Shown here: positions 61,840 through 63,135 of the stretch, piece after piece
Layout: the number at the start of each line of letters is the position of its first letter
How positions within the stretch are numbered: the first letter of the stretch is position 1
DNA from: an uncultured Rickettsiales bacterium
Lineage (GTDB): Bacteria; Pseudomonadota; Alphaproteobacteria; Micavibrionales; GCA-2720935
Direction: 5' to 3'
Length of the DNA stretch: 64,000 nucleotides
Assembly: GCA_950054255.1 (NCBI GenBank)
Contig: CATLOR010000002.1
Span: 264,325 to 328,324 of the forward strand
Position numbers and translations under genes: made by a program
The notes under the pieces: model-generated
Told to the model about the DNA's origin: nothing
Databases searched by the model: none
Seen by the model: only the letters and a program-made list of their open reading frames with translations

Positions 61840-63135
61840 TTAAGGGCGAAGTGTGCGACGTTTTGACTTCAAGAACTTCTCCCATTCTTGTCTGTAATCT
61901 GAATCAAAATCATCAATCTCTGTTTCAGCATCATTAAATCCAACCCAATCTTCTGCGTTACGATTCAATCCTGAATATAAAGCAGCTTTATTAAAAAGCT
62001 CACTTCTGTAACTAACAACATCTTGCTCTTTTTGCTCACCATCATCAGAAAACTCATTAAATAAAACAGAAAAGTCATGCTTTTGTTTTAGAAAGCGCAT
62101 CCCCGCCTTTACAACTTTTTTACGCATTAAAGGGCGTTTCTCCATATCAGAAAGCATCGCCTTATAATCACTCTTCTCATCGGCTTTTAGATACCTGATA
62201 TCAATTAAAGCCTCTTGCGGGATATCGCTAATTTTAACGGTTTTAAAACTACCCTTTCCTTGGCGCATTTCCTGAGCCAAAGCTTTTTGAGATTTGCGAC
62301 TATCTCCTTTTGCGAAACGGTCTTGTAGAGAAGATAACAAAGCATACTCCTCGCCCTCATACATAAATGTTTCTACAACATAAAAGGGTTGAGGTGTTTC
62401 ATCCTTACGCTCCATAGCTTGAACCAAAACACCTGGACGTACATCTTTCGAGCTACTTTTAACTTCAGGAAAAGAAAGATCCATCGGGTTTAAACCAAAC
62501 TCTTTAATTAATTCCTCATAATATTGGCTTGCATGCCTCAAGGTTTCAATACTCCCGTGAAATGCTGGTAAGATCATATCACCAGGCATATCTTTTTGCA
62601 GATGAAAAGGCAAATAAGGGCGTGGCAATAACGCATTCTCAATCGCTAATATATCAGTTGCATACCCATCATCATTTGCAGGCCATCGCTCAAGGCCAAT
62701 AATTCTTTTTGCTAACGCCTGAACATCAAGCATAAACAATTTTTTCTTACCTGGCTCATCAAACAAAACGCCATAAGCACTATCCCCACTCAGCGCCATC
62801 GGAAGAAACTTATGATCTTCTGAATCCAATCCCCGCGCTGGGACAAAACGGATCGTCCCTCTTCTTTTTTCAATTTGATGATCAAACCATGTTTGAATTT
62901 CTTCCTTAAAAGACTCCAAAGATTGTTCAGCTTTTGAAACATCATTAATATTCACATAGCTCTCATCCAAATGAGAAGGAGATGGAATAATACGATCATC
63001 AAGAGCGCAGATTAAATCAATCTCATCCATAACATTCATTTTATCACTTAAAACAACCGCGCGGAAACGAACCGCTTGAGTTTGTTTGGTAACAACTTCT
63101 TGTGATAAGTCACATCTATAAACAATATATGGCAT
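61840..63135 (-). CDS. Degenerate exonuclease I (SbcB)-like protein, probably catalytically impaired
   Basis: By-eye match to the ExoI N-terminal DEDDh domain (FRAVVLSDKMNVMDE...IIPSP; LDV...WPANDDG versus E. coli WPENDDG), with substitutions in the Exo I and Exo III motifs. Confidence 0.6.
   Translation of the reverse strand: MPYIVYRCDLSQEVVTKQTQAVRFRAVVLSDKMNVMDEIDLICALDDRIIPSPSHLDESYVNINDVSKAEQSLESFKEEIQTWFDHQIEKRRGTIRFVPARGLDSEDHKFLPMALSGDSAYGVLFDEPGKKKLFMLDVQALAKRIIGLERWPANDDGYATDILAIENALLPRPYLPFHLQKDMPGDMILPAFHGSIETLRHASQYYEELIKEFGLNPMDLSFPEVKSSSKDVRPGVLVQAMERKDETPQPFYVVETFMYEGEEYALLSSLQDRFAKGDSRKSQKALAQEMRQGKGSFKTVKISDIPQEALIDIRYLKADEKSDYKAMLSDMEKRPLMRKKVVKAGMRFLKQKHDFSVLFNEFSDDGEQKEQDVVSYRSELFNKAALYSGLNRNAEDWVGFNDAETEIDDFDSDYRQEWEKFLKSKRRTLRP

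What the first reader, a model, noticed from the sequence alone, without database searches (positions are those of the whole stretch)
61840..63135. Hidden exonuclease I pseudo-enzyme directly downstream of an ExoI-like gene
Seen, aligned by eye against ExoI sequence recalled from memory: N-terminus YIVYRCDL...FRAVVLSDKMNVMDE...CALDDRIIPSP versus FxFxDxET...QFAAIRTDxxxNxI...CxxxxDxLPxP. SEDHKFL matches RFDxEF (Exo II Asp apparently kept), LDV...WPANDDG matches LDV...WPENDDG, and AFHGSIE matches AHDAMAD. The first Exo I Asp appears replaced by Arg and the general-base His by Phe. The C-terminal half diverges, ending in an acidic patch and KFLKSKRRTLRP. It starts 13 bp after the upstream ExoI-like stop with its own RBS. 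Established: ExoI is a monomeric DEDDh 3'-5' ssDNA exonuclease stimulated by the SSB C-terminus, normally single-copy. Inference: a co-expressed inactive paralog that could be a regulatory or scaffold partner, an ssDNA/SSB-binding decoy, a phage-inhibitor decoy or an exported effector. I know of no described ExoI plus dead-ExoI two-gene module.
Basis: partly seen in the sequence, partly recalled or inferred. Interest (0 to 1): 0.8.

Follow-up and report, generated by a model that had tools for sequence, protein, structure and literature searches.

The report
Dead exonuclease I paralog beside ExoI
A 431-residue gene just downstream of a genuine exonuclease I gene is a highly diverged copy of exonuclease I with a dismantled catalytic centre; the pair is kept as an operon in a small group of uncultured marine bacteria, which suggests a non-catalytic partner of a DNA-repair nuclease normally thought to work alone.

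Summary
Window 61840-63135 (minus strand) encodes a 431-aa protein that starts 13 nt after the stop of a 576-aa ExoI/SbcB-like gene. That upstream gene runs off the window and has an intact DEDDh set.

- **No library match.** The 431-aa protein matches no Pfam, NCBIfam, PHROG or PDB sequence.
- **Homology to ExoI.** Its family profile aligns co-linearly with ExoI profiles (hhalign 97% probability, E 5e-11; shuffled or reversed controls E 0.2-0.7). Four of six members also hit an SbcB HMM on their own.
- **Catalytic residues.** In all 8 members the Exo I Asp is Arg7, the Exo I Glu is Asp9 and the Exo II Asp is kept (D107). The Exo III His is gone and the Exo III Asp is Ala191 (or Glu/Ala197 in the other register). 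Two-metal catalysis is very unlikely.
- **Not decaying.** Reading frames are intact in 7-8 lineages down to 27% identity. Synonymous sites are saturated while pN is 0.18 in the closest pair. The protein evolves 2-4 times faster than its neighbours.
- **Pair conserved.** The gene pair, its order and a 12-37 nt spacing are conserved. The family has about 7 representatives among 1.8 billion proteins, all in one GTDB family.

I found no published ExoI plus dead-ExoI module. The function (most likely a non-catalytic partner or regulator of the adjacent ExoI) is inferred, not shown.

The parts
61840..63135 (-). Gene for the 431-aa degenerate ExoI paralog (the 'partner'; P0002), stop codon included
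   Evidence: ORF list and translation. hhalign against ExoI profiles gives 97% probability, E 4.9e-11, with 405 co-linear columns. Orthologues are intact in 7-8 lineages.
62521..63135 (-). Residues 1-205: diverged DnaQ-like (DEDD-fold) exonuclease domain without a working catalytic set. It holds 35 of the 39 residues that are invariant in the family.
   Evidence: The N-terminal part alone gives hhalign E 5e-12, with residues 1-156 aligned. The secondary-structure order b1-b2-b3-aA-b4-aB-b5-aC appears in both AF2 runs. Conservation profile.
63109..63117 (-). Codons for Arg7-Cys8-Asp9, in place of the ExoI motif Asp-Thr-Glu (Exo I motif)
   Evidence: Merged alignments: ExoI has D and E in 58 of 58 sequences; the partner has R and D in 8 of 8.
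62815..62817 (-). Codon for Asp107, the retained Exo II aspartate
   Evidence: Invariant in all 66 aligned sequences. Aligned to D117 of the neighbour and D108 of E. coli ExoI.
62545..62568 (-). Codons for P190-A191-F192-H193-G194-S195-I196-E197, the remnant of the Exo III motif (H-x4-D). No His sits at the general-base position.
   Evidence: 'LPAF' is invariant in 8 of 8 members. Position 197 is E in 5 of 8 and A in 3 of 8.
62221..62430 (-). Residues about 236-305: small beta-rich domain at the position of ExoI's SH3-like domain
   Evidence: AF2 with the partner family alone already gives pLDDT 64-84 here, with the same strands as the second model. There are weak chromo/Tudor-type (SH3-like barrel) fold matches at E about 1. 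With the merged model, the ExoI matches span the full length. This assignment is inconclusive.
61843..62184 (-). Residues 318-431: helical C-terminal region, weakly co-linear with ExoI's C-terminal helical domain, ending in a basic tail
   Evidence: hhalign of the C-terminal half alone gives E 0.058. It is co-linear but not significant. The shared pattern W-x-T/F-x-x-A-x-x-E is visible. The last 20 aa carry net charge +4 to +6 in all members.
63136..63148 (-). 13-nt spacer between the two genes, with a purine-rich RBS-like stretch and no terminator
   Evidence: The sequence reads TAA GGAAAACAGGGGA ATG. No terminator-like site lies between the genes. The spacer is 12-37 nt in the other lineages.
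63149..64000 (-). 3' part (283 codons) of the intact ExoI/SbcB-like gene. The full gene is 576 aa and continues 879 nt beyond the window end (G000:C2:327473-329203).
   Evidence: The DEDDh residues are present in 7 of 7 clade members.

Best explanation
The ORF encodes a full-length but catalytically dead paralog of exonuclease I.

**What is shown**
- Its N-terminal 200 residues keep the DnaQ-like fold.
- The first metal-binding Asp is an invariant Arg.
- The Exo III Asp and the general-base His are gone.
- Only two acidic residues (D9, D107) remain.
- The adjacency to an active-looking ExoI-like gene is conserved.

**What is inferred**
- D9 and D107 are probably salt-bridged to Arg7, so two-metal hydrolysis is not possible.
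- The gene is co-transcribed and probably translationally coupled with the active ExoI-like gene 13 nt upstream.
- It most likely works as a non-catalytic subunit or regulator of that nuclease. It would bind the nuclease, or its substrate or SSB, and tune where, when or how processively the active copy degrades 3' single-stranded DNA.
- This resembles the way RecC (dead RecB-like folds) serves RecB.
For: **Homology to ExoI**
- hhalign E 3e-9 and 4.9e-11; shuffled and reversed controls E 0.2-0.7.
- In-register BLASTP match to the neighbouring ExoI-like protein.
- 4 of 6 members hit an SbcB HMM singly.
- An AF2 model built with a merged alignment has pLDDT 79.8, and its 18 best PDB fold matches are all ExoI, E 4e-9 to 3e-7.

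**Dead active site**
- R7, D9, D107 and A191 are invariant in 8 of 8 partners, against D, E, D and D in 58 of 58 ExoI sequences. The His column has no counterpart.

**Selection**
- ORFs are intact down to 27% identity.
- In the closest pair pN is 0.18 against a saturated pS of 0.78. dN is 0.205 for the partner, against 0.089 for ExoI, 0.056 for the symporter and 0.135 for MutS.
- 35 of 39 invariant residues lie in residues 1-200.

**Operon and co-inheritance**
- The genes are on the same strand with 12-37 nt gaps in every lineage that has the f1-type ExoI (L003, L004/L030, L005/L031, L032, L034, L035).
- No terminator lies between them.
- The partner tree and the ExoI tree are congruent where resolved.
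- The ExoI-like gene is the only ExoI in the genome.

**Features that fit an interaction**
- The partner's N-domain is net acidic (-5 to -17). The ExoI of this clade is basic and has clade-specific insertions and a basic tail.
Against: - No direct evidence of a physical complex; no multimer prediction was available.
- AF2 with the partner family alone was poor (pLDDT 48.9, no significant fold match). The confident model therefore depends on an alignment that already contains ExoI sequences, which is circular for the fold.
- Homology of the C-terminal half is not significant on its own (E 0.058).
- The partner evolves 2-7 times faster than ExoI, which is unusual for a tightly fitted obligate subunit.
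Confidence: 0.55

Rival explanations
1. A stand-alone non-catalytic binder. The dead ExoI copy keeps the substrate cleft or the SSB-tail pocket and acts on its own. It might cap or protect 3' ssDNA ends, or compete for the SSB C-terminus (this genome's SSB ends in DDFEDEIPF), without touching the neighbouring nuclease.
For: The most conserved residues cluster on the former active-site elements, and several are new invariant arginines (R7, R23, R25, R91, R92, R101). The genome has a canonical SSB tail. DEDD pseudo-nucleases that bind nucleic acid are known (PML PXL module, PMC13659232, listed).
Against: The N-terminal domain is net acidic in all members (-5 to -17), which is not typical of a DNA binder. 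The strict operon linkage with ExoI in every lineage suggests a joint function. The SSB-pocket residues could not be mapped reliably and are not conserved even among ordinary ExoI of this group.
Confidence: 0.2
2. A still-active hydrolase with a rewired active site, for example one-metal chemistry using D9, D107 and D137 with Arg7 stabilising the transition state, possibly on a different substrate.
For: Three acidic residues (D9, D107, D137) are invariant. Conservation is strongest around the old active site.
Against: The first metal-ligand Asp is replaced by Arg, and both the general base and the Exo III Asp are lost, in 8 of 8 members. From established knowledge, single substitutions of these residues abolish activity in DEDD enzymes such as DnaQ and ExoI.
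Confidence: 0.08
3. A defence-related or anti-phage module, or an exported effector. The SbcB-like pair would be related to RT-associated SbcB (DRT10/UG17), or the dead copy would act as a decoy for phage ExoI inhibitors.
For: The PADLOC model RTasSbcB matches the neighbour at E 9e-50 and the partner weakly. A 2026 preprint links SbcB to DRT10 control (10.64898/2026.04.29.721553, listed).
Against: No reverse transcriptase or other defence gene is nearby. The flanks are VTT/DedA, DsbB, COQ7, a sodium-solute symporter and MutS, and this arrangement is syntenic across lineages. The PADLOC hit reflects generic SbcB homology. There is no PHROG hit for the partner, no signal peptide, and the C-terminal tail is not conserved.
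Confidence: 0.05
4. A decaying tandem duplicate with no function, or an ORF unrelated to ExoI whose similarity is due to chance.
For: It evolves fast (51% identity where ExoI keeps 79%). It has no library match. The model built from the family alone is poor.
Against: Frames stay open in 7-8 lineages although synonymous sites are saturated, and pN is much lower than pS. 39 residues are invariant across 27-74% identity. Profile similarity exceeds the shuffled controls by ten orders of magnitude.
Confidence: 0.04

Closest known systems
Exonuclease I / SbcB (E. coli; PDB 1fxx, 3c94, 4jrp; Pfam PF00929 + PF08411 + PF26016)
   Same: The N-terminal DnaQ-like domain is homologous and co-linear, and the Exo II Asp and a structural Asp (D137) are kept. 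It has a similar length and probably the same three-part layout: exonuclease domain, small beta domain and helical C-terminal domain. Even the WPxNDDG stretch resembles E. coli ExoI.
   Different: The Exo I Asp is Arg, the Exo I Glu is Asp, the Exo III His is absent and the Exo III Asp is Ala or Glu. It matches no Pfam or PDB sequence model. An extra conserved segment (LAIE...YLPF...PG...LPAF) sits where the His loop lies. About 60 residues of the C-terminal domain are missing. It is encoded as a second copy beside an intact ExoI, whereas ExoI is classically a single-copy monomer.
RecC in RecBCD and AddB in AddAB (inactive paralog folds serving an active nuclease/helicase)
   Same: The logic is the same: a catalytically dead copy of the enzyme's own fold, encoded beside the active copy and retained by selection.
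   Different: The fold families are different (SF1 helicase and PD-(D/E)xK nuclease, not DEDD). For RecC and AddB the complex is shown experimentally; here it is only inferred.
DEDD pseudo-nucleases and vestigial 3'-5' exonuclease domains (PML PXL module, PMC13659232; the inactive exonuclease domain of Taq/Bst DNA polymerase I, from general knowledge)
   Same: A DEDD fold that has lost its metal ligands yet is conserved and used for binding or structural roles.
   Different: Those are domains inside larger proteins of other lineages. None of them is a separate ExoI-type protein paired with an active ExoI.
RT-associated SbcB of DRT10/UG17 defence systems (PADLOC PDLC03817)
   Same: It is an SbcB-type protein in a small conserved gene module. 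The HMM matches both genes here.
   Different: There is no reverse transcriptase, and the genes sit in a housekeeping syntenic context. The partner of the SbcB-like gene is a dead SbcB copy, not an RT.

Membership tests
Exonuclease I (SbcB) family, DEDDh 3'-5' exonucleases | Homologous DnaQ-like exonuclease domain | tested here: met
   hhalign 97% probability, E 4.9e-11. The N-domain alone gives E 5e-12, against controls at E 0.2-0.7. 4 of 6 members hit an SbcB HMM. No Pfam PF00929 hit at E < 1.
Exonuclease I (SbcB) family, DEDDh 3'-5' exonucleases | Exo I motif D-x-E (metal ligands) | tested here: not met
   R7-C8-D9 in 8 of 8 partners, against D-T-E in 58 of 58 ExoI sequences.
Exonuclease I (SbcB) family, DEDDh 3'-5' exonucleases | Exo II aspartate | tested here: met
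   D107 is invariant and aligned to E. coli D108.
Exonuclease I (SbcB) family, DEDDh 3'-5' exonucleases | Exo III motif H-x4-D (general base His and fourth acidic ligand) | tested here: not met
   The His column has no counterpart, and the Asp aligns to invariant Ala191. In the alternative register the positions are Phe192 and Glu/Ala197.
Exonuclease I (SbcB) family, DEDDh 3'-5' exonucleases | SH3-like and C-terminal helical domains (PF08411, PF26016) | tested here: inconclusive
   There is no Pfam hit. The C-terminal half alone gives hhalign E 0.058, co-linear. A beta-rich domain at residues 236-305 is modelled at moderate confidence without ExoI sequences. Full-length fold alignments to ExoI come only from the ExoI-informed model.
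Exonuclease I (SbcB) family, DEDDh 3'-5' exonucleases | SSB C-terminal tail binding pocket | tested here: inconclusive
   Columns for the E. coli residues I recalled from memory as pocket or basic-ridge residues (R148, Y207, K227, Q311, R316; Arg327 and Arg338 are named in PMC10143822) are not conserved even among ordinary ExoI of this group. The alignment there is unreliable.
Exonuclease I (SbcB) family, DEDDh 3'-5' exonucleases | Mg-dependent 3'-5' ssDNA exonuclease activity | not testable with these tools
   This needs a biochemical assay. Loss of activity is predicted from the residue changes.
Pseudo-enzyme partner of an active paralog (RecC/AddB-type logic) | Conserved co-directional adjacency and co-inheritance with the active paralog | tested here: met
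   Same order and strand, with 12-37 nt gaps, in all lineages examined. The two trees are congruent where resolved.
Pseudo-enzyme partner of an active paralog (RecC/AddB-type logic) | Physical complex with the active paralog | not testable with these tools
   No multimer prediction or experiment was available.
DRT10/UG17 RT-associated SbcB module | Adjacent UG/Abi-type reverse transcriptase | tested here: not met
   The neighbours are VTT/DedA, DsbB, COQ7, a histidine kinase, an SSF symporter and MutS.

The most novel reading that the evidence does not exclude
In this bacterial clade exonuclease I has become an obligate two-subunit enzyme: one catalytic ExoI and one pseudo-exonuclease copy of itself. 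The dead subunit would supply substrate or SSB handling, or gate the active site. That would be a heteromeric architecture not described for any bacterial ssDNA exonuclease, arising by tandem duplication and subfunctionalisation.
Probability: 0.35. Interest if true: 0.65.

Novelty: new variant of a known kind. Interest (0 to 1): 0.5.

Why it matters
ExoI is a textbook monomeric, single-copy repair nuclease and the model for how SSB recruits its partner proteins. A conserved operon that pairs it with a dead copy of itself would show that a DEDD ssDNA exonuclease can acquire a pseudo-enzyme subunit, as RecBCD and AddAB did. It offers a natural system for asking what the ExoI scaffold does apart from catalysis: DNA threading, SSB docking or regulation. 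The reach is limited, because the module is confined to one small family of uncultured marine bacteria (about 7 representatives among 1.8 billion proteins) and its function is untested.

Tried and rejected
- **Library searches.** Pfam, NCBIfam and PHROGs with the single protein gave nothing useful: a sub-threshold DUF1292 hit in Pfam, and none in NCBIfam or PHROGs. PDB sequence searches with the protein and with the family profile also found nothing.
- **AF2 with the partner family alone (6 sequences).** pLDDT was 48.9 and Foldseek gave no match below E 0.5. This run therefore does not test the fold.
- **AF2 with the merged alignment.** This model is confident, but it is informed by ExoI rows. 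I treat its ExoI fold matches as consistency, not proof.
- **dN/dS.** Synonymous sites are saturated in every available pair, so only bounds can be given.
- **Origin of the partner.** The partner clade sits on a branch of about 6.5 substitutions per site, so a tree cannot tell in-situ tandem duplication from an older origin.
- **Orphan gene next to ExoI in a sister family.** A conserved 172-180-aa orphan lies downstream of ExoI there. I tested whether it is a remnant of the same partner, and hhalign gave E 0.1-0.33, so no.
- **C-terminal ...LRP tail.** I compared it with the ...RFRP ends of sister-family ExoI proteins. It is not conserved within the partner family, so I dropped it.
- **SSB-pocket mapping.** Unreliable.
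- **P0010.** This hit from the representative search is a tandem-repeat artefact.
- **Earlier-findings look-ups.** Nothing relevant.

Full report
**What is there**

Window 61840-63135 on the minus strand is a 431-codon ORF. The junction on the minus strand reads TAA GGAAAACAGGGGA ATG. The ORF therefore starts 13 nt after the stop of the preceding gene, behind a purine-rich stretch. No terminator-like site lies between the two genes.

The preceding gene is cut by the window end. Read from the genome (G000:C2:327473-329203), it encodes 576 aa beginning V/MWIYYDTETTG.
- It matches Pfam RNase_T and the ExoI C-terminal domain.
- It matches the solved ExoI structures 4rg8 and 1fxx.
- It has hundreds of database relatives named exodeoxyribonuclease I.
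- Its DEDDh residues (D6, E8, D117, H191, D196) are intact, as they are in all seven members of its clade.
- It is the only ExoI-type gene in this 1.99-Mb, 99.8%-complete genome.

**Is the downstream protein really ExoI-like?**

By itself it matches nothing significant. Pfam gives only a sub-threshold DUF1292 hit, and NCBIfam, PHROGs and the PDB sequences give none. Its family is tiny:
- about 7 representatives among 1.84 billion cluster representatives;
- 7 clusters among 5.8 billion sequences;
- present in 3 of 3 genomes of one GTDB family and in 0 of 198 other genomes sampled from the same order.

Several independent comparisons nevertheless show homology:
- BLASTP against the neighbouring ExoI-like protein gives an in-register match, residues 20-53 to 18-51, E 0.004.
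- The family profile (A2) against the close ExoI clade gives 96% probability, E 3e-9.
- The same profile against a 40-sequence ExoI profile gives 97% probability, E 4.9e-11, co-linear over 405 columns.
- The N-terminal 215 residues alone give E 5e-12. A reversed control and eight column shuffles give E 0.19-0.7.
- 4 of 6 members hit PADLOC's SbcB-type HMM on their own, best E 4e-5.

The C-terminal half alone is only marginal (E 0.058, co-linear).

**Structure prediction**

AF2 with only the six family sequences was poor (pLDDT 48.9) and its fold search was empty. Two features did emerge. The secondary-structure order matches a DnaQ fold, and a beta-rich domain at residues 236-305 was modelled at pLDDT 64-84.

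With an alignment merged with ExoI sequences the model reached pLDDT 79.8. Its 18 best PDB matches were all ExoI (E 4e-9 to 3e-7), followed by other DEDDh enzymes. That model is informed by ExoI rows, so I count it as consistency only.

**The catalytic centre**

hhalign and two MAFFT runs, one of them including real E. coli SbcB taken from K-12, agree on the following:

| ExoI position | ExoI sequences | Partner family |
|---|---|---|
| Exo I Asp | D in 58/58 | Arg7 in 8/8 |
| Exo I Glu | E in 58/58 | Asp9 in 8/8 |
| Exo II Asp | D in 58/58 | Asp107 in 8/8 |
| Exo III His | H in 58/58 | no counterpart |
| Exo III Asp | D in 58/58 | Ala191 in 8/8 |

It is not excluded, because both models start the helix at residue 190/191. 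Neither register supplies a His, and position 197 is Glu in only 5 of 8 members.

An Arg at the first metal-ligand position plus loss of the fourth ligand and the general base makes DEDDh chemistry very unlikely. This is an inference from established knowledge of DEDD enzymes. The family also has new invariant residues around the old cleft (R23, F24, R25, S30, D31, N34, D37-E38-I39, R91-R92-G93, R101-G102). It carries an inserted conserved segment (YLPF...PG...LPAF) where the His loop would be. 35 of its 39 invariant residues lie in residues 1-200.

**Is it decaying?**

No.
- The frame is open in every lineage found: the window, L032, L003, L035, L034, L030/L004, L031/L005 and P0009. These span 74% down to 27% identity.
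- Synonymous sites are saturated in all pairs, so dN/dS can only be bounded.
- In the closest pair pN is 0.18 against pS 0.78. dN is 0.205 for the partner, against 0.089 for ExoI, 0.056 for the symporter and 0.135 for MutS.
- The protein is therefore constrained but evolves 2-4 times faster than its neighbours, and up to about 7 times faster in tree branch lengths for the N-domain.

**Context**

In all lineages the order is VTT/DedA, DsbB, COQ7 (opposite strand), then ExoI-like, partner, a sodium-solute symporter, and MutS (convergent). The ExoI-partner gaps are 12-37 nt. The partner and ExoI trees are congruent where resolved.

A more distant relative (ExoI 34% identical) keeps the same synteny, but an RsmJ-like methyltransferase sits in the partner's slot. 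The partner is therefore an innovation of one clade at this position, or was replaced there. The tree cannot decide whether it arose by in-situ duplication, because the connecting branch is about 6.5 substitutions per site.

Public records of the relatives are uncultured marine MAGs labelled Rickettsiales, 'Bdellovibrionales' or Tara Oceans. Nothing phage- or defence-like is nearby. The PADLOC hit is to an SbcB model from RT-associated systems, but no RT is present.

**How it most likely works**

Shown: it is a conserved ExoI paralog without the catalytic set, always encoded immediately after an intact ExoI.

Inferred: the two genes are co-transcribed and act together, with the dead copy serving as a non-catalytic subunit or regulator. 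Two suggestive details fit this. The partner's N-domain is net acidic in all members (-5 to -17). The clade's ExoI is basic, with clade-specific insertions and a strongly basic tail. I put about 0.55 on this reading.

Rivals:
- a stand-alone binder of ssDNA 3' ends or of the SSB tail (SSB here ends in DDFEDEIPF), 0.2;
- a rewired active hydrolase, 0.08;
- a defence or effector role, 0.05;
- a functionless remnant or chance similarity, 0.04.

**Comparison and novelty**

The protein belongs to the ExoI superfamily by descent but fails the family's catalytic criteria. It is best called an ExoI-derived pseudo-exonuclease.

Dead paralog partners are known for other repair nucleases (RecC, AddB), and DEDD pseudo-nucleases exist elsewhere (PML PXL, PMC13659232). 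Three searches of the held paper library surfaced no description of an ExoI plus dead-ExoI gene pair; two of them asked for inactive or pseudo-nuclease paralogs. I rate it a new variant of a known kind. It is of moderate interest because the function is untested and the distribution is very narrow.

**Limits**

There was no multimer prediction. 

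Noticed in passing
L038:6819-7577 (syntenic locus of a more distant relative): The synteny is the same (VTT-DsbB-COQ7 / ExoI / X / SSF symporter / MutS), but X is a 252-aa RsmJ-like methyltransferase instead of the dead-ExoI partner. 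The slot downstream of ExoI is therefore variable between clades.
   Followed up: partly
L029:3444-3962, L028:3376-3918, L016:326-847 and equivalents in L015, L017, L018, L020: In a sister GTDB family of the same order, ExoI-like genes (about 540-590 aa, ending ...NDRFRP) are followed on the same strand by a conserved orphan of 172-180 aa (MKPEEIPxFIYRGAI...). The orphan has no Pfam family and no detectable relation to the partner or to ExoI.
   Followed up: partly
Upstream ExoI-like gene, window 63149-64000 and beyond (G000:C2:327473-329203): The ExoI of this clade starts with GTG. It carries an insertion of about 17 aa (ISQKDRGGDINGYTRERP, residues 87-104), a C-terminal domain about 60 aa larger than usual, and a very basic last 20 residues (net +6 to +9). 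Ordinary ExoI sequences lack these features.
   Followed up: partly
window 60395-61765 (-): A 456-aa sodium-solute symporter family gene lies 74 nt downstream of the partner on the same strand. It is conserved in that position in all lineages and may or may not belong to the same transcript.
   Followed up: no
window 57708-60398 (+): A full-length MutS (896 aa) is convergent with the ExoI-partner-symporter unit, and its stop overlaps the end of the symporter gene by 4 nt (60395-60398). ExoI is one of the mismatch-repair excision nucleases in E. coli, so the conserved proximity may be meaningful.
   Followed up: no
P0010 (hit of the representative search): A 1037-aa tandem-repeat translation matched residues 386-421 of the partner 17 times. 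It is a low-complexity or repeat artefact, not a relative.
   Followed up: yes
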